A stretch of 64,000 nucleotides of DNA from Heterodontus francisci (Eukaryota). Below the pieces are notes generated by a model. That model was not told the origin of the DNA, did no database searches, and saw nothing but the letters and a program-made list of their open reading frames with translations. The translations under genes were made by a program, and so were the position numbers. Shown in pieces: positions 9,676 through 62,949 of this stretch (position 1 is the stretch's first letter; every line of letters begins with the position of its first letter). The DNA lies in assembly GCF_036365525.1 (NCBI RefSeq), contig NC_090376.1, positions 112,275,651 to 112,339,650 on the forward strand, read 5' to 3'.

Positions 9676-10212
9676 AGATCAGGGGTTGGCAACCTGCAGC
9701 TCTGGAACGGCTCCTTGGGGTCTGATATGTAGCTCCCGAGCGGCTCCCAAATGAACACATCTTTCAAACATTGACTGCAATGTGTTTTCAGAGAATTGTT
9801 CCCCCAATGTGCTCCCAATGCAGAAACATTTTTTAAAAATCATCAGCTGTCTAAAAATTTCTGCCTGTCGAGTGCTTCACCAGGAAAAATGGCGTCCTTC
9901 ACAATCACCTGCCATCCAATCATGTGAGTCACGTGCAAGCAAGCACATTAATCAATAAAATATTTCACTCACGCTGGCCCTGGTTGGTCTGTTCAAAAAA
10001 CTAACCCAAAATGGCACATTCTGATTGGTCACCGTATTCACAACCTGATTCATCGGCATTAATGGGTTAGCACTCCATGATTGGCTGGATCTACAATAAG
10101 TAGGGTGCTAATTGGTCAATTGTAACAAAAATTCTGTTGATGGTCTTGATGCTGTGCTGGTGAGCACATGCAGATAGTCGCATTAATCAATAATGGAGCG
10201 CACTCACTCTGG

Positions 10213-11152
10213 AATCAAAACAGAAAGTGCTGGAAATACTCAGCAAGTCTGGCAGCGTCTGTAGAAAGAGAAACAAAGTTAGTGTTTCAGGTTGATGATC
10301 TTTCATCAGATCGGGCAAAGATTAGAAATGTAATAGGTTTTGAGAAAGTGAAAGGGGGGGCGGTGGGGGTGTTGTGGTAGGAAGAACAACAAAAGGGAAT
10401 GTTTGTGATAGGGCAGAGGGCAGGAGAGATTAAATAACAAAGATGTCATGGAATAAAAGGCAAAGGGAGTGGTAATAGTTGAATTAAAAGACAAAGCATT
10501 TGTCCAGCGAGAGTGTTAATGGCAAAATAACGAACAGCTCTGTCCGAAAGCAAAAGCATGAAAAACAAGTTTAAGACAGCCGCATAGTAAAAAAAAAACA
10601 CAATCAAAATAGCGATCATGGTCTGAAATTGTTGAACTCAATATTGTGTCCAGAAGGCTGTAAAGTGCCTAATCGGAAGATGAGGTGCTGTTCCTCGAGC
10701 TTGCATTGAATTTCACTGGAATACTGCAGCAGGCCGAGGACAGAAATGTGGGCATGAGAGAAAGGTGGGGAATTAAAATGGCAAGCTTTCGGAAGCTTGG
10801 GGTCATGCTTGCGGACTGAGCAGATGTGTTCCACAAAGCGGTAACCCTATCTGCGTTTGGTCTCCCTAGTGTAGAGGAGACTGCACTGTGAGCAGCGAGT
10901 ACAGTATACTCAATTGAAAGAAGTACAGGTAAATCGGTGCATCACCTGGAAGAAGTGTTTGGGGCCTTGGATGGTGACGAGAGAGGAGGTAAAAAGGAAG
11001 GTGTTACACCTCTTGCGATTGCATGGGAAGGTGCCGTGGGAGGGGGACGAGGTATCAATGGTGATGGAGGAGTGGACCAGGGTGTTGCGGAAGGAACAGT
11101 CCCTTCAGAATGCTGATGGGGAGGGAAGGAGAAGATGTGTTTGGTGGTAGCA
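10213..11152 (-). mobile_element. Penelope-like element, 5'-truncated (GIY-YIG C-terminus and 3' region with a degenerate hammerhead motif at 10277-10313)
   Basis: ORF 10616-10834 (EHICSVRKHD..HFNS..KLEEQHLIFRLGTLQPSGHNIEF) matches the copies at 47985-48215 and ~60740-60947. Confidence 0.88.
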
Positions 11153-11272
11153 TAATGCTCTGGCTCTGGTGTTGAGGCTGTGTTGGTGAGCATGTGTGTC
11201 ATGTGCAGGCAGGCAGATAAATCATTAAAGGAACAAACTTACTCTGGTCTTTGTTTTGGGGCTGCTTTGGAA

Positions 11273-20547: not shown

Positions 20548-22716
20548 AACATAGAAATGTGGATAATAGGAGCAGGAGTAGGCCATTCGGCACTTCGGGC
20601 CTGCTCCGCCATTCAAAAAAGATCATGGCTGATCGTCTAATTCAGTACCCTGCTCCCGCTTTCTCCCCATATCCCTTGATCCCTTTGGCATTAGTAAATA
20701 TCTCTATCTCCTTTGTGAATATATTTAATGACTTGGCCTCCACTGCCTTCTGTGGTGGAGAATTCCACAGGTTCACCACCCTATAAATGAAGAAATTTCT
20801 CCACATCTCGGTTCTAAATGGCATACCCCGTATCCTGAGACTGTGACCCCTGGTTCTGGACTCCCCAGTCATCGGGAACGCCCTCCCTGCATCTAGCCTG
20901 TCTAGTCCTGTTAGAATTTTATAGGTTTCTATGAGATCCCCTCTCATTCTTCTAAACTCCAGTGAATATAGGCCTAGTCGACCCAATTTCTACTCATATG
21001 TCAATCCTGCCATCCCAGAAATCAGCCTAGTAAATCCTTTTTGCACTCCCTCCATGGCAAGAACATCCTGCATCAGATAAGGAGACCAAAACTCAACACA
21101 ATACTCCAGATGTGGTCTCACCAAGGCCCTGTATAACTGCAGTAAGACATCCTTGCTCCTGTACTCAAATCCTCTTGCAATGAAGGCCAACATACCATTT
21201 GCCTTCCTAACTGCTTGCTGCACCTGAATGCTTGCTTTCAGCGACTGGTGTACAAGGACACCCAGGTCTCATTGCACCTCCCCTTTTCCCAATCTATCAC
21301 CATTCAGATAATAATCTGTTTTTCTGTTTTTACAACCAAAGTGGATAACCTCACATTTATCCACATTATACTGCATCTGCCATGCATTTGTCCATTCACC
21401 CAACTTGTCCAAATCACATTGGAGCCTCTTTGCATCCTCCTCACAGCTCACATTCACCATCCCCACCCACCCCCCACCCCCCCAGCTTTGTGTCGTCTGC
21501 AAATTTGGAAATGTTACATTTAGCTCCCTCACCCAAGTTATTAATATATATTGTGAATAGCTGGGGCCCAAACACTGATCGCTGCAGTACCCCACTAGTC
21601 ACTGCCTGCCACCCAGAAAAAGACCCATTTATTCCTACTCTCTGTTTCCTGTCTGTCAACCAATTCTCAGTCCATGCCAGTATATTACCCCCAATCCCAT
21701 GTGCCTTAATTTTGCACACTGGGCGGCACAGTGGTGCAGTGGTTAGCACTGCAGCCTCACAGCTCCAGGGACCCGGGTTCGATTCCAGGTACTGCCTGTG
21801 TGGAGTTTGCAAGTTCTCCCTGTGTCTGCGTGGGTTTTCTCCGGGTGCTCCGGTTTCCTCCCACAAGCCAAAAGACTTGCAGGTTGACAGGTAAATTGGC
21901 CATTATAAATTGTCACTAGTATAGGTAGGTGGTAGGGAAATATAGGGACAGGTGGGGATGTTTGGTAGGAATATAGGATTAGTATAAATGGGTGGTTGAT
22001 GTTCGGCACAGACTCAGTGGGCCGAAGGGCCTGTTTCAGTGCTGTATCTCTAATCTAAAAAGCCTCTTATGTGGGATCTTATCAAAAGCCTTCTGAAAAT
22101 CCAAATACACCACATCCACTAGTTCTCCCTTATCTATTCAATTAGTTACATCCTCAAAAAACTCCAGTAGATTTGTTAAGCATGATTTCCCTTTCATAAA
22201 CCCATGCTGACTTTGTCCAATCCCATTTATGCTTTCCAGGTGTTCTGCTATCACATCCTTTGTAATAGACTCTAGCATTTTCCCCAGTACTGATGTAAGG
22301 CTAACTGGTCTGTAATTCCCTGTTTTTTCTCTCTCTCCTTTTTTCAAAAGTGGGGTTACATTTGCCACTCTCCAATCTGTAGGAACAGCTCCAGAGTCTA
22401 TAGAAATATTGGAAGATGACCACCAATGCATCCAATATTTCCAGGGCCACTTCCTTTAGTACTCTGGGATGTAGATTATCTAGCCTTTAATCCCATTAAT
22501 TTCCCTAGCACTATTTTTTTACTAATACTGATTCCCTTCAGTTCCTCCCTCTCATTAGATACTTGGTTCCCTAACATTTCTGGGAGGTTATTTGTATCCT
22601 CCATTGTGAAGACAGAACCAAAGTATGTGTTTAATTGTTCTGCCATTTCTTTGTTCCCCATTATAATTTCCCCAATTTCTGACTGTAAGGGACCTACATT
22701 TGTCTTCCCTAATCTA
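20548..22716 (-). mobile_element. CR1 RT region to 3' tail, inserted into an older plus-strand CR1
   Basis: ORFs 22138-22431, 21269-21595, 20990-21223 and 20642-20986 are CR1 RT fragments. The flanks join as GKIGPISDQKGDL|VEAEGIA. Confidence 0.88.
21721..22060 (+). mobile_element. tRNA-derived V-SINE (HE1-like)
   Basis: A/B-box head (tggtgcagtgg..ggttcgattcc), V-domain gtgtggagtttgca..ccgggtgctccggtttcctcccaca, and CR1-like tail gggccgaagggcctgtttcagtgctgta. Confidence 0.9.
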
Positions 22717-31900: not shown

Positions 31901-32110
31901 ACTTGACTGGCGCATGATGAATGCATCATGGCAGCTCCCTGGGTATCTTGCACAGCCATGCGTGATAATCTTTCAGTGATTGTAGACCAGCTGAACATTG
32001 ATTTAGGTTGATGAATACTCCTGGGTGATCTGTGGCATCTTGATTACAGCAAGTGTGCTGCCTATGACTCCCTGGACCTATTGGAATCCAGCCAGAGCAG
32101 CAAATCCATG

Positions 32111-32147
32111 AGTTCTGATGAAAGGTCACAGACCTGAAATGTTAACT
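32111..32147 (+). ncRNA. Minimal type I hammerhead ribozyme motif
   Basis: Core CUGAUGA and GAAA, stem II AGGUC/GACCU, stem I AGUU/AACU. Stem III CG has decayed to TG. Confidence 0.7.
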
Positions 32148-32208
32148 CTGCTTCTCTCTCCACAGATGCTGCCAGATCTGCTGAGTATTTCCAGCACTTT
32201 GTGTTTTT
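32111..32208 (+). mobile_element. Short hammerhead-bearing Penelope-derived insertion inside the Harbinger transposase
   Basis: Begins AGTT-CTGATGA-aaggtc-aca-gacct-GAAA-tgtt-AACT. Flanked by aaatc(c/g)atgag at 32102-32112 and 32209-32219. Confidence 0.8.
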
Positions 32209-33649
32209 AAATCGATGAGCCCTTTCATTCTAACTGGCCTCATCAGCAATGGTGCACATAAGCACTGACCCTGGCAAACAAGGTATCTGTCACCTGTGAG
32301 ATGCACATATAGCCAGCAGGTTGTGAGATTTGACAAATAGCACCAACAGATCCTTGGAAGGAGTTGGAGGTGAAGAAATTAAGGGCTGTGGTAACCATGA
32401 CTGCCACTGACAATGTGTGCCCACCTGGTCCACTTGGCAGTAGGTCTTCTTCCAGGAGGCTGCAAATGTCAGCAACCACCTGACAAGAAAGTCTGACCCT
32501 CCTGATATACTGGTGCTTAGTCACATTAAGGAAGCTTATCCTCTGTCTGGATACCCTGGAATTGGAGGCATTGTCTCCTGCGAGTTCGACCTCTGAGTTT
32601 ATTCCCTCTGCCCTGTGGATCATTGAGGAGAGATTGCTGCTGCTCTTGTGCCTGTTGGTTTTGCTGCTGCTGCTCTTGGTCCTCATTTGAGGTTCAAGGT
32701 AGAGCTGCATAAGTGACTACATATTGTTGTGAAGGCTGACAGCTGGAAAATGCAGACCAAAGGCAAAACTTCTAAGGTAGAGAAATAACCTCCGAAGTAT
32801 TGGAAACCACCTCCAAAGCAGTGAAAGCACACTCCCAGACAAATCATGTAAGCCTTTCAACTAGGCAAGAAAACAGCTGTCAGATCTCAGAATAATTTAA
32901 AGTCTTTCTTGCCTGTCAATTGTTTAGCCCTGTCGATTCCAGCTGTCCTCTTGCTTTGTTTTACCTGGCAGGTTCCAGGAAGCCTGGGAAACTCATGCAC
33001 ACAGAGTTAAAGTCAGAATGCTGGGTTAAAACAGCAGTTAGTGAGCAATTTACATATCTACATGGCACATTCACCTGTCCAACAGAGGTTTCCTACGTGC
33101 TTAAGAACACGCTTGGATTAAAGGTTAAAGGCCATGGGTTCCTGCTGGCTTCCGGTTATGCTGACAGTTTCAGCTGTTTTAACTTCCCACCCACCTTGAC
33201 AGGTTAAACCCCTCCCCATTCAAACAGTCAAGATTTAAAAATAAAGTTTGATAGGTGGTTGAAGAAACATAGGAACAAACATATGGGATTAGGACTACTG
33301 CTTGTGTGAAGGATCAACATCCTGTTTCCAAGTTGTAATTTATATCTGATAATTTTTTTGGATTGTTATCCATTTTTACTGATGTAGAAATTTTTAAAAA
33401 ATGTCAAATTATGTTGTGTTCGATGTCAAGTTACATTAGTCTTGTTCTGTATTGGTAAGCTGATCTTTGGTGTTTAGGTCCTGGAAATAGAAGCAGAACA
33501 TATTGAACAGAACGTGGGGAAACCAAGCTAAAAGGAAACTTTTCCCTCTCACATTTCATTCACTGTTCTCACTGTTCTCAACTTTTGATGGTGTAGGAAT
33601 CCTTTGAACACCACTATCCAGGAATGAGTAGCTAGTCAGTGTCTTTTTT

Positions 33650-34150
33650 TAAAATTGTTTTTTGGTATGTGTGCAATGCTGGCAAGACTGCATTTATTGC
33701 CCATTTCTAGTTAGGCGCGGGCTAGGGTGAGGACAAGAACAGTCCTTGAACTGCTGAAACCTTGTTGTGATGGTGTCAATTTTATTCTCATTGCTGAACT
33801 ATGTAGCAACTATTTCTAATTGGGTGGCTGACAAGTCCATTTCACAATGCATTAAGAGTCAACCATGTAAAGAGAGTGGAGTCAGGAGTAGGCTGTACTG
33901 AATAGTGGTGAAGGCACTCTTCCCTCTAGCAATAATATAAAAGCAAAATACTGTGGATGCTGGAAATCTGAAACAAACACAAGAAACGTTGGAAATACTC
34001 AGCAGGTCTGGCAGCATCTGTGGAGAGAGAAGCAGAGTCAACGCTTCAGGTCAGTGACCCTTCTTCAGAACTGGCTTCCCTCTAGCAAGTTGGGTTTCCA
34101 GATCAATCTGGAAACCTTCATTTTGGGGGGATACCAGCCCATAATTTATG
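33650..34150 (-). mobile_element. Decayed SINE (same family as 3465-3710) hosting a hammerhead mini-element
   Basis: Contains the tail motif gctggcaag..gcatttattgccc and the body motif ttaagagtcaacca. Confidence 0.6.
33933..34074 (-). mobile_element. 142-bp hammerhead-bearing Penelope-derived insertion
   Basis: Perfect 14-bp TSD cttccctctagcaa (33919-33932 and 34075-34088). Hammerhead motif at 34036-34072 reads AGUU CUGAAGA agggtc act gacct GAAG CGUU GACU. Confidence 0.88.
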
Positions 34151-34929
34151 TCTAGATTGTCAATAAAAAATTAAGCAAAATAGATTTTTAAAAATTAAAG
34201 AAATAAATAAAAAAACAATAAACAGGAAACAGTAAACAGCAGAAAGCAATGATGGAATTTTGAAGGCGAGAAAAAAATGATTAAGAGGATCAGAGGAAAG
34301 GAAAAGATGGTAAGAAAGGAGATGAAATGTTTGAAAGCCAAAGAAGAAAGCTTTATAGACACTGACCTCCTGCTTTTGAAAGAAAATTTATACAAGGAGA
34401 CAGCAACAGGAAACAGGACAAAGATGGCTATGAACTTGAAAGTGTCCTGATTTTCTGTTCTTACTAAGCTGTTTGAATACATCATTCATAATTGCCAACC
34501 ATCACCATACAATATACCTATGGAGTAATTTTAAGGGTCTGTAATACCAGAGGACCATGTTCTTGATTGAACATTTGGATAATTGTTGGCTGTACGTGCT
34601 AGGATTTCTGATATGCATTGTCAACTGCTGAGTGACTTTGCTGGAAACATTGACTTCTTAGGTATTCACCCAACCCAGTCTAAAGGAGCATGAATGTTTG
34701 GTTCTCCACCATTATCTAGCCGCTGGGGGACTGGGGGTGGGGTGGGGGGTTGATCCTTACAGTAAACGTTAACCATGATCCATGCACATGCTTTGCTAGT
34801 GTGGATTTGACAGAAACACTGGATAAAGAGAAGATACCAGGTGGTGTAGAAATTTGCAGAAAGACCCCAATACATTCTTAATGCATCCGAAGTGCAGTTA
34901 TGTAATGAAATCTGAGAAACAACATCTTT

Positions 34930-36869
34930 CATAAATATTGTAGGCTATTTTATTGCATATGGCTATTGAGACAGCATCCAAGATCAATACAGATATAGTA
35001 CAATATACTATTCTAAATCAATTTTTCATCTTCCGGCAGCATTACATTCAACCTTATATACAATATATACAACGGAAGACACAGCAAGATATGTTAAAGT
35101 TACAATTATCTCTTGTCTGGTCACAAGAAATATTACATAATTATTTTTCCTGACATCCCAAAACTAAAAATGGTAACATGAAAACACTGCTGTTACATAG
35201 TTCAGGGTTTATGCAGCATCATGGAGAAAAGGAAACACACCCATTGAACTGAAATGAGCAAAATATACAAAAAGCAAACTTTGCAGACACACTAATGAAC
35301 ATTGTAACTAGCAATTACAGTTATGTATTAAATTGCGTTCCAAACTGTAAACTAAGGATGTAAAATATTGCATACAGTTTGATTTGTACATTTAAATGTT
35401 TGATACAGTGAAGCTATGAAAATTGTATTTAGTGGCAAGTGATCACTTATCTCAGTACATTCCATACTTTGTTATTGTCTCAGGTAATGAAATTTGTAGT
35501 TAGCATTTTTTCTTTCAGTGCCATTGTTATAAAAGTGGCTTTTAACACAGATTCAGCCACTTTATCATCAAGATCAATTCCAGCCTGTTTTTACCTAATG
35601 TAAAAATAGGCAATGCTCACCGTACAGATCTTCTTTGTACAGTATATTTACACACACCATTAGGCATAACTATAATAGAATTGACCTCTCGTGGAATACA
35701 GAGACCTTGCCACAGGTCTGTCATGAAACTTCAATTCCTTGCATTGCAGAAAATCATGTCTACATTCAGAATTTTCTGGCACTTTCATTAGCTGTTCCAA
35801 TAATAATAAATAAATCAGCAGAAAGGTTTTGTGGAACCACATTCACCAAAGCAGTATTGAACAGTCCCAAGTTCTGCAATCAATATAAGAAGCACTCATG
35901 GTTAAGAAACAGCAAGAACACTATCCTCTATAAATCTTATAAACAGAAAACACTGACTCCCCTCTGAAGGAATCAAACTTGCATTTTAAATAAGCTGTAC
36001 AGTTGACAATGTTTTGCATTCAATTGCATTTAATATTTACATTCTGATGTAGCTCAAATTATGTTAAGATCCTTATCGCCCACATTCGTAATATCACATC
36101 ATCTCTCCTTGTAATGACTTACTGAAGGTTACCATCCTGGTTTTAATGAAAGCTCTTGTCTGCATCTTGATGGATCTTTCAATCCAAGTCCATGACCTGA
36201 AATTGCACTTTTCTTTCCTCCTATCTGTCAGACCATTTTTTTAAAGTTAGGCTTAAGCTACTCAACATTGGATGCTTGTTGAATGGCAAGCCCAAAATTC
36301 TGGCTCATCACACAGTTACAATATTTTCAAGACATTAAACATGTTAAGGCCGAGGGCTTGTGTCTCGGGAGTTCAGCAGCGATAAAGCTAAGTTTGTGCT
36401 CCTTCTCCCATAAAAGGCTGACATTAGTATTTAAAAGAGGTAGGATTTATATCAGGTCAGTAACATTCCAGTTCAGTCAGTTTCTGATGTGAGAAGCATT
36501 TCAAAAAGGTAATGTGGTCAAGGTGTTACCAGACTGGGAAAGCTAAGTAATAGAAATTGGCTGTATCTCAGCTTAAAGAAAGGCTTAACTGGCAACAACT
36601 AATATACTGCTAAATAAGTACTGCTTCAGTGCACTCCACCTAGAAAAGGAAGAGGATGATCGATATCCATAACAGAAACTAATGAGGCAGAAAGCTTCCT
36701 TGTCCTTGAAGGTATGCAGTGTGTTGCAGTGTTATAACGGTCTCGAGGCATTATTGGTTACCCATTCACAATGAGGAAAAAAGGTAAACTTGAGCAGCAT
36801 TCCATAAAAGGTCTTTGCTGAGCAGCATTGCTTCTGTGAGGTTTCAGTGACGTTGAAGGGTCTGTCAGT
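34930..36869 (-). other. Candidate terminal exon(s) and 3' UTR of an unidentified minus-strand transcript
   Basis: About 2 kb of AT-rich DNA with no recognisable TE. AATAAA on the minus strand at 34949-34954. Strong acceptors ttttcttttgtttag (exon start 36869) and cctcttccttttctag (36639). No recognisable protein. Confidence 0.3.
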
Positions 36870-38399
36870 CTAAACAAAAGAAAAACATTGCTTGAAACAA
36901 TATTTCACAATATTATCTTAGCAATTTAGACATTCACACATGTTGATTTTGCTTAGATGGTTCTTTGCAGTTTTTCTTCCCTTAATAAACTTTTCAGACA
37001 CACCAAAGGCTTGGATAACACGCTGCATCTATTTCCAGTGTTAGAGCCAGTATCCTTTTATCCCTCTCCCAAAAGTTGTTTGGTTAGCTATCTAAGCACA
37101 ACATTAATTCACATGGGAAATGTTGCTTTCAAGGCAATGTTTATTTCTGCTGCAAAACAGGAGTTTAAGGATTAAGACCAGGAATTTAGAAAGCATTGCA
37201 AGTGGGTGGGATTCAGAATGCAAAGAACATTTGTATAACATGCATTGCAGCTTCAATTACACGATTCTGCAAAGAGCATCTAAATTAACAGAGGTATCTG
37301 AATAGTCTGCAGGTTAGAGACAGGAGTCAAAATACTCCATGAAAACAGGCCTAAGCATTGATTAGAATGTGATTTTAAAGTGTAGCCTACAGAATTTGTA
37401 CTCTGCTTAAAAAAAAAACACATTTTATTCTTTTTTGAAAATAACAGAGATTGACTGGAGTTGTGAACTGTGTCTAACTTTTGTACCTAGTGCTCTAATT
37501 TGCCATGTCAAGATACATAGCTTTATCCTTTCAAGTTTTTTGTACCATTCTACTCGAATGATACTTGATAGATACAATTAAGTCTAAAAACAAACGATTC
37601 AAGTCTCAAAAAGATTCTAGTCTGACCTGTAACCCAAATGAATAAAAACAGTGCATAAGCAGTGAGAAGTTTCTGGAAAGTATGGAGCTGGTGTTTACAA
37701 TGGGAATACTGTGCTCTAAATATTACTGTTGGCACAAGTTCTTTTCAATTTCCTAAAGTGCAGTTATCAGGAGCTTGGACACAGACTTCTTTTGTTTTTC
37801 GACATCCTATTGAAATTTTAACAAAAGAAATCCAGAACATAATGAGTATCAGATGCAGAACAATCTGCCACGAGAAAGTCAAACCCTTGAAAGAAGGTTT
37901 TTGAAACATATGGCCACAAGGAAAACATTTAGAGGTGAAACTGGTCTATGTCCGCAGTACAAAATGTGCTTGTAGCGAATCTGCAGCCGATTTTTCACCG
38001 CACCCGTTCTTTCCACTGAAGTTCACAGAACAATATTTCAAACTCTTTTTGGAAGCTTGATTCCTAGTCTCACTGTCACTTTCACTTGGTTGGAAAATAA
38101 AAGTCTTGGTAATATTTTCCAATTCAATGGGAAATAAAAACAGGCGCAGCAAAACATCAGCAGCCGATTCACTCAGAGCCCGTTTCGTGCTGCTGGCATA
38201 GGTCAAATTCACTTCCTCAGAGTACATCCCTATAATCATCAACTGGCAGCCTGCAGCCTACAAGGCAGCATGCATTATATGGTTCTTTTGCTAAAAGAGA
38301 TCCCTAGCCAACACATGTTATATAGATTTCTCAGAATAAGAGGTGAGAAAAAAGAGTATGGGCACACAGCTCCTATTTTTCATTTTGAGTTGTTCTCGG

Positions 38400-38640
38400 G
38401 ATCTGACAAATTTGTCCATGCCTAGGTGCCTGAGGTGGACAACCTCTTCAGAAGGTATTTACAGTCAACCATGTATAGTGTGAGCTCAGTCACATGTAGA
38501 TCAGACCAGATCAAGATGATTGGTTCCCCTTCCCTGAAAGGGATCAGTGAACCAGCTGGGGTTTTACATCAATCCAACATCATTCATAGTCATTTAAATC
38601 ATCAATTACTGAATTAAGTTTCACAACTTGCCATAGCTAT
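38400..38640 (-). mobile_element. Decayed SINE (family of 3465-3710)
   Basis: agtcaacca..agtcacatgtag..ccttccctgaaagggatcagtgaaccag matches the ~62950-63100 copy. Confidence 0.6.
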
Positions 38641-39189
38641 TGTATAATGTTATTTTTCATGTTCAGTTAATCTGTTTAGATTAAAACACATTGTCTGTTT
38701 GAATTAGCCTTTTCCTTACACTCTTAAATCTAGGTAATTTCAATCACACAGTATATTTAATTAAGGACAGTGGCCGTGAGCAAAAATTTACCCAAGTGCT
38801 GAGAATAATACATCCAAAGCCAAACCACCTCGACAGAAAGTACAGGCTGCATTGTTACTATACTATACATGGTAACAGTTACTGTAAGGGAGCTTTAAAT
38901 AGGTATTGCCCAGCATGACTCAGCAAGATGTTAATAAATTCATGCAGCAGCTACAAGGTGTGGCATACAGTGCACATTTTTTTGCTGGAATGTTGAGAAT
39001 CAACACAAAACAAACACTAGCTGGATTATAAAGGATTTTGCTGAATCATCATCACAAGAAGAATCAGTAATGGAAATCCGCAAGATAAATTACTGTAGAA
39101 AACAGTGACATTGTGTGAAATCAGTATATTCTTACTAATTATGACCCATGATATCACATACTTCCTTCTTAAACATTAATTTGACAGAG

Positions 39190-39560
39190 TGGTAGCAGTC
39201 ATTCCTCTGGAGCCAGAACCTCCACTCCAGAGACTTCAGCACATAATCTAGGCTGACATGCCAATGCAGTACTCGGAGTGCTGCACTGTCAAGAGGTGCT
39301 CTCTTTCGGGTGAGACATCAAATCACGGCCCCATCTACCATCTCAGGTGGCTGTAAAATAACCCATCGCACTATTTGAAGAGCAGCATTCTCCTAGTGTC
39401 CTGGCTAATTTATTCCTCAACCAAAATTGCTGAAACAAAATTAACTGGACATTTTGTGGGATGTTGCTATATACAATTCGGCTACATTTCCCTACATTAC
39501 AGCAGTGACTACACTTCAACAGTACTTTGGAGCATTCCAAGGCCATGAAAGATGCAGTTC
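39190..39560 (+). mobile_element. Deu-domain SINE (SacSINE1/AmnSINE-like)
   Basis: gcacataatctaggctgac..gcagtact..gctgcactgtc..gaggtgc..tctttcgggtgagac..gcactatttgaagagcag..gtgtcctggc resembles the DeuSINE core as I recall it. Confidence 0.75.
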
Positions 39561-39890
39561 ATGATCACAACATACAAATAGATGAGAGAGGCCATTCAGC
39601 CAATCTTCTATGGATAGAAAGTTTAAGACTAGAGTTTCCAACGGGCTTCATTTTAACGAGAGCATTAAATAACTCAAAATCTAACCAATAAGTCACATGA
39701 ATCATCCAACTGGATCTTAAATAAATGAAGTTTTATCTTCACTGCTCTAACTGGAAGACCATTTTGGTTACTCTCTGCGTGAAGGAGCTTCTTCCTGTTA
39801 TCTGTCCTAAGTTGACCTTTCACCAATAATAGCCAAAGCCCCCGATACTATTGGTGGGGTCAACTTTGATTTATACCCTTTACTTGATTT

Positions 39891-40541
39891 CTTCTACTTC
39901 TTCTGTGGCCTCCTTGTCTCGAGAGACAATGGGTAAGCGCCTGGAGGTGGTCAGTGGTTTTTGTAGCAGTGCCTGGAGTGGCTATAAAGGCCAATTCTAG
40001 AGTGACAGACTCTTCCACAGGTGCTGCAGATAACATTGGTTGTCGGGGCTGTTACACAGTTGGCTCTCCCCTTGCGCTTCTGTCTTTTTTCCTGCCAACA
40101 GCTAAGTCTCTTTGACTTGCCACACTTTAGCCCCGCCTTTATGGCTGTCCGCCAGCTCTGGCGATCACTGGCAACTGACTCCCACGACTTGTGATCAATG
40201 TCACAGGGCTTCATGTCGCGTCTGTAGACGTCTTTAAAGCGGAGACATAGACAGCTGATGGGTCTGATATTAGTGACGAGCTCGCTATACAATGTGTCCT
40301 TGGGGATCCTGCCATCTTCCATGCGGCTCTCATGGCCAAACCATCTCAAGCGCCGCTGGCTCAGTAGGGTGTAAATGCTCGGGATGCTGGCCACCTCGAG
40401 GACTTCTGCGTTGGAGATACGGTCCTGCCACCTGATGCCAAGGATTCTCTGGAGGCAGCAAAGATGGAATGAATTGAGACGTCGCTCTTGGTTGACATGC
40501 ATTGTCCAGGCCTCGCTGCCGTAGAGCAAGGTACTGAGGAC
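39891..40541 (-). mobile_element. RTE LINE 3' fragment, an older diverged copy of 51540-54264
   Basis: ORF 39951-40529 (LYGSEAWT..CSTCGRVCHSRIGLYSH) aligns to the C-terminus of the 877-aa ORF. Possible tgattt TSD. Confidence 0.92.
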
Positions 40542-41740
40542 TGATTTAACTTAGCATAAAGGCCTCCTCTCACATTCATCTACAGAGCAACAGCATGGCC
40601 AGGTTTCCCTCAAAACCCAATCTTCTCATGCAATGAGTCAACCTAGCAGCTCTTCTTTGTGCTGCTTTCATTTGCAATCGAAACAGGACACTATCAACAC
40701 TATGAATGACTGCCCCTGATTTGTACTCTAGTTGTTGCTTTCATACCTCTGCACTTTCTCGCTGTGTAAAGTAGCAGAAGGATTTACAGAATGATTAACA
40801 GTTGGACAGACCTTTATGGCCATAGCCATCTTTATATTAACCAATAGGATGACTGGACCGATAAGCACCCACAACCCATGTGATGAGGGGGAGCCACAAA
40901 TGCACATACACTGGACACAAGTATCCTGGTGGATGTCAACCCAGAATTCAGAGCCAGAGCTAGAGCTATGGTTTCCACTCGCCAGGACTGTCAAGAGCAG
41001 AGTTTGAACCCTGCACCTACTGACCTCAGGCAGAATCACAGAATCGTTACAGTGCAGGAGGAGGCCATTCGGCCCATCGTGTCTGCACTGACTCTCTGAA
41101 AGAGCAATTCCCACAGTTCCATTCCCCTGTCTTCTCCCCATAACTCTGCACATTCTTCCTTTTCATAAACCTGTCTAATTCTCTTTTGAATGCTTCAATT
41201 GAACCCGCCTCCACCATGTTCTCAGGCAGCACATTCCAGAACTTAATTACTCGCTGCGTGAAAAAGTTTTTCCTCATGTCGCTTTTGCTTCTCTTACTAA
41301 ATTCTTTAAATCTGTGCCCTATTGTTCTCGATCCTTTCACGAGTGGGAACAGTTTCTCTCTAGCTACTCTGTCCAGACACCTCATGATTTTGAATACCTC
41401 TATCAAATCACCTCTCAGCCTTCTCTTCTCCAAGGAAAACAGTCCTAACCTCTCCGATCTATCTTCATAACTGAAATTCCTCATCCCTAGAACCATTCTC
41501 GTGAATCGTTTCTGTACTCTTCTCAATGCCCTCACGTCTTTCCTAAAGTGCAGTGCCCAGAACTGGAAGCAATATTCCAGCTGAGGCCGAACTAGTGTCT
41601 TATTCAAGTTCAACATAACTTCCTTGCTCTTGTACTCTATGCCCTTATTAATAAAGCCCAGGATACTGTAGGCTTTATTAACTGATCTTTCAACCTGTCC
41701 TGCCACCTTCAATGACTTATACACATAGACACCTTGGTCC

Positions 41741-41884
41741 AGTTCTGATGAAGGGTCACTGACCTGAAACATTAACTCTGCTTCTCTCGCCACAGATGCT
41801 ACCAAACCTGCTGAGTATTTCCAGCATTTCTTGTTTTTATTTCAGATTTCCAGCATCTGCAGTATTTTGCTTTTATTTTATTAT
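41741..41884 (+). mobile_element. 144-bp hammerhead-bearing Penelope-derived insertion
   Basis: TSD acacct(t/a)ggtcc (41729-41740 and 41885-41896). Starts AGTT CTGATGA agggtc act gacct GAAA catt AACT (41741-41777). Confidence 0.88.
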
Positions 41885-43040
41885 ACACCTAGGTCCCTCT
41901 GCTCCTGCACCCCCTTTAGAATTGTACCCTTTATTTTATATTGTCTCTCCATATTCTTCCTACCAAAATGAATCACTTCATATTTCTCTGCATTGAACTT
42001 CATCTACCACCTGTCTGTCCATTTCACCAACCTGCCTATGTCCTTTTGAAGTTCTACACTATCCTCCTCAAAGTTCACAATGCTTCCAAGTTTTGTAGCA
42101 TCTGCAAACTTTTGTGCCCTGTACACCAAGGTCTAGGTCATTAATATATAGCATGAAAGCAAGGGTCCCAACACTGATCCCTGGGGAATTCCACAACAAA
42201 CCTTCCTCTAGCCCAAAAAACATCCATTAACCACTACTCTTTGTTTATTGTCACTCAGTGAATCTTGTATCCATGTTGCTACCATCCCTTTTATTCCATG
42301 AGCTACAAGTTTTCTCATGTCTGTTGTGTGGCATTGTATCAAACACCTTTTGAAAGTCCATGTACACCACATCAACAGCGTTGCCGTCATCAACCCTCTC
42401 TGTTACCTCCTCAAAAAACTCCAGCAAGTTGGTTAAACATGATTTTCCCTTAAGAAATCCATGCTGACTTTCCTTAATTAACTTGCATTTGTCCATGTGA
42501 CTACTGATTTTGTCCCGAATTATTTATTCTAGACGTTTTCCCACCACTGAGGTTAAACTGACTGGCTCTGGTACCACCCCGAGTCTAAGAAAGACTGAAA
42601 AATTATGGCCAGTGCCTCTGCGATTTCCACCCTCACTTCCCTTAGTATCCTTGGATGCATCTCATCTGGTCCTGGCTTTTTATCCACTTTAAGTACAGAC
42701 AGCCTTCATTTTTTATCAATTTTAAACCCTTCTAGTGTCTGACCTGCCTCCTCTTTCAACATTGCCTGGGTTGCGTCTTCTTCCTTGGTAAAGACAGATG
42801 TAAAGTATTCATTTAATACCTCAGCTATACCCTCTGCCTCCATGTGTAAATCCCCTTTCTGGTCCCTAATCAGCCCCTCTCCTCCTTTTACAACCTTTCA
42901 CTATTTATATGCTTATAGAAAACTTTGAGATTTCCTTTAATGTTAGCTGCCAGTGTCTCTTTTCATGCTCTCTCTTTGCTTCTCTTATTTGCTTTTTCAC
43001 TTCCCTTCTGGACCGTCAATATTCAGCTGGTTCTCAATAG

Positions 43041-43383
43041 TATTTTATTTTATTTATTTATTTCAAGATACAGCACTGAAACAGGCCCTTCGGCCCACCG
43101 AGTCTGTGCTGACCATCAACCACCCATTCATACGAATCCCATATTCCTATCACATCCCCACTTGTCCCTATATTCCCCTACCACCTACCTATACTAGGGG
43201 CAATTTATAATGGCCAATTTACCTATCAACCTGCAAGTCTTTGGCAGTGGGAGGAAACCGGAGCACCCGGCGAAAACCCACATGGTCATAGGGAGAACTT
43301 GCAAACTCCGCACAGGCAGTACCCAGAATCGAACCCGGGTCTCTGGAGCTGTGAGGCTGCGGTGCTAACCACTGCTCCACTGT
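43041..43383 (-). mobile_element. V-SINE (HE1-like)
   Basis: Reverse complement of the 21721-22060 element, with an A-rich tail. Confidence 0.9.
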
Positions 43384-43760
43384 ACCTAGCATCTGTCATT
43401 AGCACATTTTTTCTTCTTTAAATTAATCTCTACCTCTTTGGTCATCTAGGGAGCTCTGGATTTGTTTGCCCGACTTTTCCTCTTCGAGGAAACATACCTT
43501 GACTGTGCCCGAACTATCTCTTCTTTGAAGAGAGTGCATTGTTCATCTATTGGTTTTCCTGCCAGCTTTTGACTCTAATTTATTCTCCCCAGCTCCATTC
43601 TTACCCCATTGAAGTTGGCCTTTCCCCAGTTAATTATTCTTGCCCTGGATTGCTCTTTGTCCTTTTCCATAGTCAGCCTAAACCTTATGATACAATGATC
43701 ACTAACCCCTAAATGCTCTACTACTGATACTTGATCCACTTGGCCCACCTCATTCCCAAG

Positions 43761-47692: not shown

Positions 47693-48263
47693 CGGGGGGG
47701 GGGGGGGCAAGAGATAACAAAAGAGGTGTTGATAGGACAAGGTCACAGAGAATAACTGACCAGAAGGTCACGGAACAAAGGCAAATGGTATGTTAATGGT
47801 GTGCTGAAAGACAAAGCATTAGTACAGAGAGGGTGTCAATTGACTGTAAAATGAACAGCCCTGGCTCCAAGCACAAACATAAAAAAAAAACAGTGGGTGG
47901 CCACAGTAGAAACAAACTAAACAAACTAAAATAAAATAAACAAATTAAAAAGAATAAAGAACTAAAAATAAAAAGGGGGGCCCGTCATGCTCTGAAATTA
48001 TTGAACTCAATGTTCAGTCCGGCAGGCTGTAGCGTGCCTAATTGGTAAATGAGGTGCTGTTCCTCGACTTGCGCTGATGTTCGCTGAACACTGCTGCAAT
48101 CCCAGAACAGAGATATGAGCATGAGAGCTGGGGGAGTGTTGAAATGGCGAGCAACCGGAAGCTCGGGGTTATGCCTACTGACTGAGCGGAGGTGTTCCGT
48201 AAAGCGGTCACTCAAACTGCATTTGGTCTCCCCAATGTAAAGACCACCACATTGTGAGCAGTG
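47693..48263 (-). mobile_element. Penelope-like fragment (GIY-YIG C-terminus and part of the 3' region)
   Basis: Translates to YIGETK..SDRFTEHLRSV..ELPVARHFN..EEQHLIYQLGTLQPAGLNIEFNNFRA. Confidence 0.88.
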
Positions 48264-48881
48264 TATTAGTATTACGAAGTAACTATATTCGTAACTAATA
48301 ACGAATTTAGTATTACAAAGTAAGTATTTTGAACACAGATGATAATCTTTTGAGTTAATACATATAGAGTATTGGGGAAAACAAAACTTGAGGGATGAGG
48401 CAAAAAAAAAAGAAACAAAGGTTGTGGTTGTTTAGCGTCTTGGCCATGAATTAAACAGCTACTGAAGGTATGAGATTTTATATTCTAAGAGGTAGAAATG
48501 ACCCATTTCCTCTAACTTGGTTTACATGGTTTTGATTTTGTCTTGGGACATAGATACACTCACAACCAGTCCTCTAAATCCACTAGAGTTATGTGCTACT
48601 TTGTCTTACAACAAATCATGGTATTTCTCCACTTCCCTCATGGGGCTTGGACTACGTCAACACGAGAGAGAAGACAAAAAAAATCAGGAAGTAGAAGAAT
48701 ACTACAATGTTAACTACAAATTTTAACAAAAAGAATGATAGTTTACAGGGATAGAACAATTTCTGGAAGGCATAATACATAAGAGTATGAACAGAATATG
48801 TTAAATTAAAACCGATCACCACCCCACTATGCTTCTTTCCTCCCCCTCATTAAAAAAAGGCTGCGCTTGCTGACAACGCTA

Positions 48882-54264: not shown

Positions 54265-54399
54265 AGGAACTGCATTAATTCATGACATTATAACACAAAA
54301 AAAGTTTTAGTATGGACACAGAAAAGCTATTGTGGCCCTTGATGAATTAAATTCGGGGAGTCAACAATGACTCAGCTGATACAGTGGGTCTTGAACCCA

Positions 54400-59953: not shown

Positions 59954-61306
59954 CCAATTGCTTCCAATTTCCACCATTCTCACCTTCACATGGTCTATCT
60001 GCAACACTTCCCTTCCCTTCCTCGACTTCTCTGTCTCCATCTCTGGGGATAGGCTGTCCAGTAATATTCATTATAAGCCCACTGATTCCCACAGCTACCT
60101 TGACTACACTTCCTCACACCCTGTTTCCTATAAGGACTCCATCCCATTCTCCCAGTTTCTCTGTCTCCAACGCATCTGTTCTGATGATGCAACCTTCCAC
60201 AACAGCGCTTCTGACAGCCCTTTTTCCTCAACCAAGGATTCCCTCCACTGTGGTTGACAGGGCCCTCAACTGTGTCCAACCCATTTCTCGCACTTCTGCC
60301 CTCACCCCTTCCCCTCCCAGAACTGCAAGAGGGTTCCCCTTGTCCTCATTTTCCACCCCGACTAGCCTCCACATCCAAAGGATCATCCTCCTGCCATTTC
60401 TGCCACCTCCAGTGTGATGCCACCACCAAACAGATCTTCCCTTCCCCTCCCCTCCCCTGTCAGCATTCCAAAGGGATCATTCCCTCCAAGACACCCTGAT
60501 CCACTCCTCCATCAGTCCATACACCTTGTCCCCTTCCCACGGCACCTTACCATGCAATGGCAGGAGGTGCAATACCTGCCCTTTTACTCCTCTCTCCTCA
60601 CCAGCCAACCCCTAAACACTCTTTCTAGGTGAAGCAGCGATTTACTTGTACTTCCTTCAAATTTAGCATACTGTATTCGCTGCTCACAATGCGGTCACCT
60701 CTATATTGGGGGGACCAAATGCAGATTGGGTGACCGCTTTGCAGAACACCTCTGCTCAGTCCACAAGCATGACCTGAACTTCCGGCTGCTTGTCATTTCA
60801 ACTTACCTCCCTGCTCTCATGCCGATATTTCTGTGCTTGGCCTGCTCCAGTGTTCCAGTGAACATCAACAGCAGCACCTGATCTTTTGATTAGGCACTCT
60901 ACAGCCTTCTGGACTTAAAATTGAGTTCAACAATTTCAGAGCATGACCTTTTTTATTATTGTATTTTATTCTTTTACCTTGTGCCTGCCTTAAATTTGTT
61001 TTCTCCTGTTGTGCTTTTGGACAGAACTGCTCATTATTCTGTCATTAACACTCACTCTAGACTCCTGCTTTGTCTTTCACACAACTATTTACACTCTCTT
61101 TGCCTTTGTCCCATGGCATCTCTCCTGCCCTCCGCCCTATCACACACCTTCCATTTTGTTCTCTTCTCCACCTCCCCCCCACCTCTTTATTTCTTAAAAC
61201 CTAATGCATATCTAATCTTTGCCAGTTCTGATGAAAGGTGACAGACCTGAAAAGTTAACTCTGCTCTCTCCACAGATGTTGAGTATTTCCAGCATTTTCT
61301 GTTTTT
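59954..61306 (+). mobile_element. Penelope-like element, 5'-truncated: RT thumb, GIY-YIG endonuclease and 3' region with hammerhead motif
   Basis: LPFLDFSV..YKPTDSHSYLDYTSSHP..SIPFSQFL, CNGRRCNTC, YCIRCSQCGHLYIG.TK..DRFAEH and LGTLQPSGL. TSD attccc(a/g)atct (59943-59953 and 61307-61317). Confidence 0.92.
61224..61260 (+). ncRNA. Minimal hammerhead ribozyme motif in the Penelope 3' end (sense orientation)
   Basis: AGTT CTGATGA aaggtg aca gacct GAAA agtt AACT. Confidence 0.65.
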
Positions 61307-62949
61307 ATTCCCGATCTTTGACCTGCTCTCGTCGCCAGTGTTTACATGGTTGGTCCAGTTAAACACTGGTCAACCCTGGTAACCCCCAGGATGTTTATGG
61401 AGGGGGAATTCAAGGATGGTAATGCCATTGACCATCAAGGAGAGACGATTATATTCTCTCTTGTTTAGGTGGACATTGCTTGGCACTTTTGGGGCATGAA
61501 TGTTACTTGCCACTTCTCAGTTCAAGCCTGACTATTGACGAGGTCCTGCTGCATGTGGTCATGGACTGCTTCAGAATCTGAGGAGTTGTGAATGGTGCTG
61601 AATACTGCACAATCATTAGTGAACATCCCCACTTCTGACCTTATGTTGGAGGTAAGCAGCTGAAGATGGTTGGGCCTAAGACACTGCCCTGAGGAACTCC
61701 TACAGCGATGTCCTGCGGCTGAGGTGATTGACCTCCAACCATTATTCTTTGTGCTAGGTTTGACTTCAACCACTGAGAGTTTTCCCCTCGATTCCCTTAG
61801 ACTTCAATTTTGCTAGGGCTGCTTGGTGCTGCACTCAAGTTAAAAGCTGCCTTGATGTCAAGGGAAATCAATCTCACCTCACTTGTGGAGTTCAGCTACT
61901 TTGTCCACATTTGGCCCAAGGCTATAATGAGGTCTGGAGCCAAGTAGCCCTGATGGAACCCAAGCTGAGCATCGGTGACCAGTTTATTGCTGAATAAGTG
62001 CCACTTGATGGAGGTGTCATCGACACCTTCCATCACTCTGCTGATGATCGAGAGTAGATTAATGAAGCAGTAATTGGCCTGATTGGATTTGTCCTGCTTT
62101 TTGTGGATAGGTTATAGCTGGGCAATTTTCCACATTGCTGGGTGGATGCCTGGGTTGTAGCTGTACTGGAACAGCTTGGCTAGAGGCACAGCTAGTTCTG
62201 GAGCACAAGTCTTCAGTACTACAGCTGGGATGTTGTCAGTACCCATAGCCTCTGCCGTATCCAGTGCCTTCAGCCATTTCTTGATATCGCAGAGTGAATC
62301 GGATTGGCTGACGACTGGCACCTGATGCTGGGAACCTCAGGGGGAGGCTGCGATTTATCATCCACTCGGCACTTCTGTCTGAAGATGGTTGCGAATGCTT
62401 CAGCTTTTTCTTTTGCACTGATGTGCTGGACTCCTCCATCATTGAGGATGGGGATATGTGTGGAGCCACCTCCTCCTCCTCTTGTTAGTTGTTTAATTAT
62501 CCACCACCATTCATGATTGGATGTGGCAGGACTGCAGCGCTTTGATATGATCTGTTGGTTGTGGGATCACTTAGCTCCATCACATGCTGCTTTCGCTGTT
62601 TGGCATGCACGTAGTCCTGTGTTGTAGCTTCACCAGGTTGGTACAGTTTTAGGTATGCCTGATGCTGCTCCTGGCATGCTTGCCTGCACTCCTCATTGAG
62701 CCATGGTTGATCCCTTGACTTGATAATAATGGTGAAGTGAGGGATATGCCAGGCCATGAGGTTTTAGATTGTGGTTGAATACAATTATGCTGCTGCTGGG
62801 GGTGGGGAAGCAGGGAGTGATGGCCCACAAACCTCCAGATGTTAGTGAGGAGGTCTTTGCATAGTCGGCTGGGCAGGGTGTGCCTTTGTTATTTCCGATG
62901 TTCGGTCGATACCAGTTTTAACCACTTATTTTCTACAGCAGTTTGATAC

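What the first reader, a model, noticed from the sequence alone, without database searches (positions are those of the whole stretch)
32111..41884. Family of ~100-145 bp TSD-flanked mini-retroelements that begin at a hammerhead ribozyme (Penelope-dependent, retrozyme-like)
Seen: three separate insertions (32111-32208 +, 33933-34074 -, 41741-41884 +), each inside a different host TE and each flanked by its own 11-14 bp direct repeat. All three begin within ~2 nt of the 5' arm of a motif AGUU-CUGAWGA-[stem AGGUC/GACCU]-GAAA-CGUU-AACU. The same unit forms the 3' end of the coding Penelope copies (61224-61306 and 10213-10313). Known: Penelope-like elements carry minimal type I hammerheads with a palindromic stem III, and non-autonomous hammerhead retroelements (retrozymes) occur in other animals. 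Inference: random 5' truncation should not give the same boundary three times. Either this is a discrete non-autonomous element mobilised by Penelope RT/GIY-YIG, or the ribozyme fold sets the RT stop point. The boundary lies upstream of the predicted cleavage site, so simple self-cleavage does not explain it. The repeat itself may already be in libraries as a Penelope fragment.
Basis: partly seen in the sequence, partly recalled or inferred. Interest (0 to 1): 0.8.

Follow-up and report, generated by a model that had tools for sequence, protein, structure and literature searches.

The report
Penelope stubs starting at promoter site
These short repeats are not a separate mini-element but by-products of a known jumping gene, and their shared starting point most likely marks where the jumping gene's RNA begins, which offers a way to test how such elements copy themselves.

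Summary
The three short TSD-flanked insertions are real. They are stubs of an abundant Neptune-type Penelope-like element whose 138-nt unit (+1 = window 41741) is both the 5' UTR at the head and the repeat at the tail of full copies. The fixed 5' boundary is real: among 99 copies chosen by their 3' tail alone, 31 start at -3..+5 (2.6 expected) and only 6 at -100..-4. They are not a separate lineage: short and long copies interleave on a tree (19 changes, shuffles 16.7) and share identical sequences. There is no peak at the hammerhead cut (+34). A conserved TATA-like box at -30 and an initiator-like motif at +1 point to +1 as the transcription start. The 3' ends (~+101, ~+138) match the two internal RT start sites known from another Penelope-like element. 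Best reading (0.68): RT primes near the RNA's 5' end and runs off it, like strong-stop DNA. The RNA start is inferred, not shown; no raw reads were available. The scan noted the same pattern in another genome (e1-7858714).

The parts
32111..32208 (+). Short copy, unit +1..~+98 (ends at the inner RT-start class), inside a repeated host element
32102..32112 (+). Left TSD (11 bp; right copy 32209-32219, 1 mismatch; last 2 nt overlap unit +1,+2)
33933..34074 (-). Short copy, unit -2..~+140 (carries the tail)
34075..34088 (-). Exact 14-bp TSD (other copy 33919-33932)
41741..41884 (+). Short copy, unit +1..~+144 (carries the tail), inside a LINE-like host
41726..41740 (+). Left TSD (15 bp with 2 mismatches, inner 12 bp with 1; right copy 41882-41896)
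41741..41777 (+). Minimal type I hammerhead-like motif (stem I, core, stem II, GAAA, decayed palindromic stem III); predicted cut after 41773
   Evidence: sequence; covariation of pair +13/+25 over 217 copies
41841..41878 (+). Tail (~+101..+138) between the two classes of 3' end
59960..61315 (+). 5'-truncated long copy: broken RT C-terminus and GIY-YIG, 3' UTR, unit from 61224 (5' limit approximate)
61194..61199 (+). TATA-like box at -30..-25 of the long copy; initiator-like YYANWYY centred on 61224
10208..11153 (-). 5'-truncated long copy of an older subfamily; unit +1 at 10313, motif decayed

Best explanation
The short copies are dead-end reverse transcripts made from the same master RNAs as the long copies of a Neptune-type Penelope-like element. 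SHOWN: the unit is the head (5' UTR) and the tail repeat of the full element; about half of the copies that reach +5 stop at -3..+5; short and long copies share subfamilies; 3' ends fall at ~+101 or ~+138; TSDs peak at 14 bp. INFERRED: Pol II starts at +1 (TATA-like -30, initiator-like +1). The RT/GIY-YIG protein nicks the target and primes inside the RNA at +101 or +138, as shown in vitro for anole PAc. On a linear RNA that starts at +1 it runs off the 5' end after 100-140 nt, and the product is joined to the second target strand, often through microhomology or a few nt of trimming. Priming both target strands, one at each site, gives the head-to-head pairs. Long copies need the RT to continue upstream of +1, either by transfer to the tail repeat or on a circular or tandem RNA; the data do not separate these. 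The stubs lack the -30 box and so are probably not re-transcribed.
For: Cliff of 5' ends: per-nt stop rate 0.47% over +6..+104, 7.4% over -3..+5, 0.10% over -270..-4 (99 copies). Across four samples chosen without the 5' part: 51 of 182 at -3..+5, 12 of 182 at -100..-4. Genome-wide exact counts: 28,647 for a 44-mer at +3..+46 against 13,976 for one at -20..+24. In 102 distinct long copies -30..-25 reads T96 T84 A91 W98 A93 A85 %, with variable positions beside it, and YYANWYY has its A at +1 in 88. Head copies: the unit is followed by a 924-codon open frame with RT and GIY-YIG. L279 starts at +4, runs into the ORF, is internally deleted and ends at tail +137, the shape of a whole-mRNA copy. 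No clustering of short against long on the tree; similar nearest-neighbour distances (P=0.19). Head-type sequence past +135 (6 nt or more) in 9 of 66 short and 3 of 24 long non-head copies. In 34 of 99 C1 copies with an inverted partner, the partner never carries the tail (0 of 34; 27 of 34 end at +93..+112). PMC11167929 shows two internal RT start sites and an uncleaved RNA template for PAc.
Against: No RNA start was observed: only assembled contigs were served. No extra-G cap signature in solo copies (G before +1 in 4 of 12). The -30 box is an imperfect TATA match, and the initiator consensus is degenerate and also matches at -17 (40 of 102) and -80 (27 of 102). Ends spread from -4 to +5, with +3 as frequent as +1. 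A few ends cluster upstream at -23/-25 and -14. PAc is a Poseidon element and this one is Neptune-type, so its biochemistry is carried over by analogy. The tree rests on 131 columns, with 3 of 43 branches starred. Tail asymmetry is not absolute: 2 of 32 pairs in other loci carry both tails.
Confidence: 0.68

Rival explanations
1. RT stalls at +1 on a longer RNA because of the ribozyme fold or a protein bound there; the boundary is a stop, not an RNA end.
For: The boundary coincides with the 5' arm of stem I; the fold is under selection (pair +13/+25 goes A-U, G-U, G-C across subfamilies); half of the copies pass the boundary.
Against: RT copies 3' to 5', so a fold should stop it at its 3' side (+25..+37), where ends are few (1 of 99 at +31..+37). 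No stable upstream structure is shared by four subfamily representatives. Does not explain the conserved -30 box at fixed spacing.
Confidence: 0.13
2. A discrete non-autonomous, retrozyme- or SINE-like element that propagates from its own short copies using Penelope proteins.
For: Discrete ends, TSDs and very high copy number (52,495 exact tail matches). Retrozymes derive from pLTRs in other vertebrates (10.64898/2026.07.22.740005).
Against: Tree interleaving and identical short and long sequences; no column differs at P<0.16. Short copies turn over with the long subfamilies. Head-to-tail short arrays are nearly absent (1 among 239 hits, none in C1). Stubs lack the -30 box. Ends do not follow the cut site.
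Confidence: 0.06
3. The boundary is a 3' splice site (branch-like TTTCTAAY at -15..-8, YAG ending at +2), as in D. virilis, where the intron ends at the 5' end of helix I; the stubs would come from a spliced or splice-processed RNA.
For: TTTCTAA and TTTGYCAG are conserved in about 90% of long copies; +3 is the commonest single start (20 of 86); PMC4209133 reports the intron/helix I overlap.
Against: No shared first-exon sequence upstream of the stubs. Element-derived A+1/G+2, and in some copies -2/-1, lie inside clear TSDs (L004, L011, L014, L050, window 33933). The branch A would sit only ~11 nt from the AG. No peak at the branch point.
Confidence: 0.07
4. The template is a short RNA fired from the tail promoters of the many truncated long copies (Pol II read-through into host DNA, or a U6-type Pol III RNA ending in the T-runs at +98 and +135), copied in trans.
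For: Every long copy keeps the -30 box and +1; PMC2377424 shows that the 3' pLTR of D. virilis Penelope can drive transcription; T-runs lie at both 3' end classes.
Against: Long copies share the same 3' ends, so these are priming sites; head-type sequence past +135 is as common in short as in long copies; PAc needs RNA ~55 nt past the start sites, which only head RNA supplies; stubs are no more diverged than long copies.
Confidence: 0.06

Closest known systems
EN+ Penelope-like elements, Neptune/Nematis type (Craig et al. 2021, PMC8557442)
   Same: Single ORF with RT and C-terminal GIY-YIG, CX4CxxC linker motif, partial tandems (pLTR), adjacent inverted 5'-truncated copy, 30-40-bp tail at one end only.
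   Different: That paper describes a high degree of 5' truncation. A sharp pile-up of 5' ends at one predicted start site, making ~100-140-bp stubs the commonest product, was not in the passages I read.
Anolis Poseidon PAc (Frangieh et al. 2024, PMC11167929)
   Same: Two internal RT start sites bounding the tail, about 100-140 nt past the hammerhead; both target strands extended; uncleaved RNA used as template.
   Different: In PAc the ORF begins at the hammerhead; here the main ATG lies ~+173. PAc showed no strand difference in start site in vitro, whereas paired arms here almost always use one site each. The genomic 5' end distribution was not analysed there.
[quoted passage not shown]
   Same: Short helix I, extra nucleotide between 9 and 10.1, palindromic 15.2-16.2, mostly dispersed single copies tied to truncated PLEs.
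   Different: The motif begins exactly at the predicted RNA start; the youngest subfamily has CCGAAGA in the core; insertions do not start at the cut site.
Non-LTR retrozymes (PMC7761336; bioRxiv 10.64898/2026.07.22.740005)
   Same: Non-coding, hammerhead-bearing, pLTR-related, dispersed monomers exist.
   Different: Retrozymes are defined by tandem units with hammerheads and circular RNAs, and form their own families; these stubs are solo or head-to-head and do not form a lineage.
Adineta vaga Pen2a and D. virilis Penelope pLTR promoters (PMC3846280, PMC2377424)
   Same: Promoter within the pLTR; TATA plus Inr-like motifs proposed for Pen2a; inverted pLTR, tail and solo pLTRs.
   Different: D. 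virilis uses an internal TATA-less promoter with a 5' UTR intron. The A. vaga paper explained head-to-head repeats by self-priming on an antisense template; the data here fit a sense template.
Minus-strand strong-stop DNA of LTR retroelements (recalled, no call)
   Same: Works like it: priming near the RNA 5' end, run-off at the end, a terminally repeated segment that could accept a transfer.
   Different: Target-primed and already attached to the chromosome; no tRNA primer, integrase or true LTR. The strand transfer is inferred only.

Membership tests
EN+ Penelope-like element | Single ORF with RT and C-terminal GIY-YIG | tested here: met
   924-codon open frame in L137-L140; RVT_1 E=4e-6 and GIY-YIG E=1.7e-4, both just under the curated cut-offs
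EN+ Penelope-like element | Partial tandem pLTR, inverted 5' copy, 30-40-bp tail at one end | tested here: met
   L138 and L144 tandems at 99.5% and 99.1%; 34 of 99 with an inverted partner, 0 of 34 partners with tail
Neptune/Nematis rather than Penelope/Poseidon | CX2-5CxxC motif between RT and EN | tested here: met
   CX4CxxC upstream of the GIY-YIG in the L138 protein; definition
Neptune clade | RT phylogeny within Neptune | not tested
   No reference PLE proteins were fetched
Minimal type I hammerhead | Conserved core, helices I and II, palindromic 15.2-16.2 | tested here: met
   217 copies: helix II pairs 94-98% kept, one covarying pair; helix I pairs 89-96% kept but without covariation; 15.2-16.2 CG in 141. 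No Rfam hit
Minimal type I hammerhead | Self-cleavage | not testable with these tools
   Needs an in vitro assay; core variants CCGAAGA (76) and CTGAAGA (33) outnumber CTGATGA (60)
Non-LTR retrozyme | Head-to-tail tandem units each with a hammerhead | tested here: not met
   1 same-strand short pair among 239 hits, none in the C1 sample; sampled loci only, so rare arrays elsewhere are not excluded
Non-LTR retrozyme | Own non-autonomous lineage | tested here: not met
   19 label changes against shuffled mean 16.7; identical short and long rows
Non-LTR retrozyme | Small circular RNA | not testable with these tools
   Only contigs were served
TATA/Inr Pol II core promoter | TATA-like box at about -30 and initiator at the start (consensus recalled) | tested here: met
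   both motifs imperfect or degenerate
TATA/Inr Pol II core promoter | Capped RNA starting at +1 | tested here: inconclusive
   No raw reads; no extra-G signal in solo copies

The most novel reading that the evidence does not exclude
Penelope-like elements replicate through a target-primed strong-stop step. RT primes ~100-138 nt from the capped 5' end, runs off, and must transfer to the identical repeat at the RNA's 3' end to make a long copy; a second transfer rebuilds the promoter-bearing pLTR. The tens of thousands of stubs are failed transfers, and head-to-head pairs are twin priming at the two start sites of one RNA. This would give a mechanism for pLTR regeneration and a retrovirus-like step in a telomerase-related retroelement.
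Probability: 0.3. Interest if true: 0.8.

Novelty: new variant of a known kind. Interest (0 to 1): 0.5.

Why it matters
How Penelope-like elements build their pLTRs, tandems and inverted repeats is described as unresolved (PMC2377424: no obvious mechanism for pLTR regeneration; PMC8557442: still undefined). If the cliff at +1 is the RNA start, the genome holds a very large natural record of RT run-off products. That record fixes the template as a sense, uncleaved RNA and makes strand transfer against circular template directly testable with the existing in vitro system. In practice it also warns that such stubs can be mis-annotated as a SINE or retrozyme family. As a new mobile element family the finding does not hold.

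Tried and rejected
Rfam scan of the window: no hammerhead at E<=1, only a weak tRNA-like hit. RNA evidence: 22 runs listed, all contigs; 4 laid on L138:1900-3100. Summed depth rose about 20-80-fold between the bins at -53..-13 and +30..+70 in three runs, but contigs cannot show starts and divergence upstream confounds this, so it is not used; no GT-AG joint among the 15 joints shown (25 not shown). Cap-G test: G before +1/+2 looked enriched (18 of 31) but almost all of it is in inverted junctions, where the other arm can supply it; solo copies show none. Peak at the hammerhead cut: 6 of 182 ends at +31..+37. Of these L165 is a unit split by a later insertion, and L158 shares that insertion's end. 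Cleavage at the GUC just before +1 (a type III-like register) rejected: older subfamilies have GCC there yet the same boundary, and no stem I can form. wrongly dropped two head copies (L243, L263) as duplicates; one search corrected this to 99 copies (only L196 dropped). The TSD length table (mode 14 bp, 19 of 47 TSDs of 10 bp or more, microhomology included) comes from the 97-copy run. The tree used 55 of the 99 (30 short, 25 long) plus 2 window copies; 44 with other 5' ends or head structure were left out. The first search used the whole unit as query and was not used for the end histogram. PMC12602865 (Neptune in killifish) held nothing relevant. Pfam did not name the host ORFs at 32243-32716 or 41050-41736. 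Dfam and Repbase could not be searched. Earlier-findings look-ups by sequence and by genome returned nothing.
Full report
Numbering. +1 is the A of AGTT at window 41741; there is no position 0 in the text, though scripts report -1 as 0. The window lies in a 6.0-Gb genome, G000. I call it shark-like from recalled repeat content only.

1. Observation. The three short insertions, their TSDs (11 bp with 1 mismatch, 14 bp exact, 12-15 bp with 1-2 mismatches) and the two longer copies ending in the same unit are all present. Empty-site homologues confirm two insertions; the host of the third was not identified. The motif is a minimal type I hammerhead as described in PMC4209133 (parts 1-2 of 4 read). 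Over 217 copies, helix II pairs are kept in 94-98%, and pair +13/+25 is G-C in 93, G-U in 61 and A-U in 49, tracking subfamily. Helix I does not covary and so gives no evidence either way. None of the five window copies is intact, and Rfam found no hammerhead.

2. The parent element. A protein search listed 150 matches, several in open frames of 924 codons. Twelve were fetched. L138 and L144 are partial tandems whose upstream repeat is 99.5% and 99.1% identical to the tail. At the head the unit +1..+138 is followed by the ORF, with the first ATG near +173; at the tail it is followed by host DNA. The protein has RT, GIY-YIG and a CX4CxxC linker, which marks Neptune/Nematis and not Poseidon (PMC8557442, passages and section 10 read). 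The unit is therefore the 5' UTR and also the terminal repeat. A 31-nt tail motif has 52,495 exact matches. Forty 10-kb stretches at arbitrarily chosen positions gave 26 unit hits in 11 stretches, roughly 390,000 genome-wide (bootstrap 180,000-650,000).

3. The 5' boundary. I took the first 100 tail matches on contig C1, chosen with no regard to their 5' side, and dropped one segmental duplicate. Of 99: 24 extend past about -270 or to the edge of the stretch, 1 ends at -270..-101, 6 at -100..-4, 31 at -3..+5, 16 at +6..+34 and 21 at +35..+104. The stop rate per nt is 0.47% downstream, 7.4% at the boundary and 0.10% upstream; 2.6 ends were expected in the 9-nt window, P about 2e-26. Three further samples agree: 4 of 26 (arbitrary stretches, inverted arms counted separately), 10 of 28 and 6 of 29 at -3..+5, with 2 each at -100..-4. 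Genome-wide, a 44-mer at +3..+46 occurs 28,647 times and one at -20..+24 13,976 times, although the first has more CpG. Plain random truncation is excluded. There is no peak at the predicted cut (+34): 6 of 182 ends lie at +31..+37, one shown and one likely due to a later insertion.

4. No separate lineage. A tree of 32 short and 25 long copies over 131 columns needs 19 label changes; the shuffled mean is 16.7, and 478 of 500 shuffles were as low. Two sets of identical sequences mix short and long, and no variable column differs at P<0.16. Support is weak (3 of 43 branches starred), but the starred branches alone force 6 changes. Head-to-tail short arrays, which define non-LTR retrozymes (PMC7761336, passages; bioRxiv 10.64898/2026.07.22.740005, parts 1-3 of 5, supplements not seen), were nearly absent.

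5. What sets the boundary. In 102 distinct long copies, -30..-25 reads T-T-A-W-A-A at 84-98% while -24, -21, -19 and -16 vary, and YYANWYY has its A at +1 in 88. The motif definitions are recalled, and the initiator also matches at -17 and -80. The spacing is that of a TATA/Inr promoter. A TATA plus Inr-like pair was proposed for a rotifer pLTR (PMC3846280, passages), and the D. virilis pLTR holds the promoter (PMC2377424, parts 1-3 of 4). L279 starts at +4, enters the ORF, is internally deleted and ends at tail +137, as a copy of a whole mRNA would. Against: no RNA start could be observed, solo copies carry no extra G, ends spread from -4 to +5 with +3 the commonest, and a branch-point-like TTTCTAAY with YAG also lies at -15..+2. 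A splice site is disfavoured because stubs share no upstream exon and several keep +1/+2 or -2/-1 inside clear TSDs.

6. The 3' ends. They fall in two classes, about +98..+108 and +135..+141, in long copies too (19 and 13 of 32 ORF-selected copies, counting ends of +83..+110 as the first class). In anole PAc, RT starts at two internal sites that bound the tail, needs RNA beyond them, extends both target strands and uses uncleaved RNA (PMC11167929, parts 1-2 of 4). Here 34 of 99 C1 copies have a head-to-head partner inside one insertion, often with one TSD around both, and none of the 34 partners carries the tail. In other loci 2 of 32 pairs carry both tails. A tail at one end only is already described. 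The near-strict one-site-each rule fits twin priming on one sense RNA (inference). Head-type bases past +135 occur in 9 of 66 short and 3 of 24 long non-head copies, so both classes appear to be primed on a head-type junction.

7. Mechanism. Most likely (0.68): RT primes 100-138 nt from the RNA's 5' end and runs off it, and the product is sealed as a stub. Long copies need continuation upstream of +1, by transfer to the tail repeat (strong-stop-like; the novel case, 0.3) or on a circular or tandem RNA as proposed in PMC4209133. Rivals: RT stall at the fold (0.13), splice-defined end (0.07), separate retrozyme lineage (0.06), tail-promoter short RNAs (0.06).

8. Novelty. The element type, hammerhead, tail, inverted pLTR and internal priming are known. 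Seven literature searches turned up no report of 5' ends piling at a pLTR start site or of a strong-stop model for these elements. The library lacks most subscription papers, and Dfam and Repbase were not available. The scan's own note e1-7858714 reports the same pattern in another genome; it is an unchecked AI note, seen after my reading was fixed, and is not independent support.

Verdict: real feature, wrong family label. It is a new variant of a known kind, of moderate interest (0.5) because it makes an open question about Penelope replication testable.

Noticed in passing
L138:2377-2469 (unit +56..+148): A 30-codon upstream ORF from an ATG at +56 (and from the hammerhead-core ATG at +8 in the older subfamily) is in frame with the main ORF and stops just before it; a strong 3' splice-site-like motif lies just before the main ATG. 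An intron removing the RT start sites from the translated mRNA is possible but untested.
   Followed up: partly
L138, L144 and C1 sample: The youngest, most abundant subfamily has CCGAAGA in place of CUGAUGA in the hammerhead core, yet keeps helix II with a G-C pair.
   Followed up: partly
L165, L158, L004: Another repeat ending in TTCAGCCC sits at about unit +33 in three unrelated loci, apparently a DNA transposon that targets the TTA/TAA in the hammerhead; it mimics ends at the cut site.
   Followed up: partly
G000:C1:23221480-23228103: Three promoter-unit matches spaced 3,290 bp apart, suggesting a full tandem array of the element.
   Followed up: no
L205, L212, L226, L236: A few 5' ends cluster at -23/-25 and -14, possibly a minor upstream start or preferred join.
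   Followed up: no
L137, L139, L140: Full-ORF solo copies beginning at +110 or +119, i.e. an ORF flanked by tail repeats as described for old Drosophila copies; L139 and L140 are one duplicated locus.
   Followed up: partly
window 51602-54274 (-): 890-codon open frame of an RTE-like LINE (label recalled), with a 89% identical 3' fragment at 39888-40541.
   Followed up: no
window 47730-48431: A third Penelope fragment (GIY-YIG end and part of the 3' UTR) without a detected unit.
   Followed up: no
window 21725-22049 and 43066-43386: Two copies of a tRNA-headed SINE, 91% identical.
   Followed up: no
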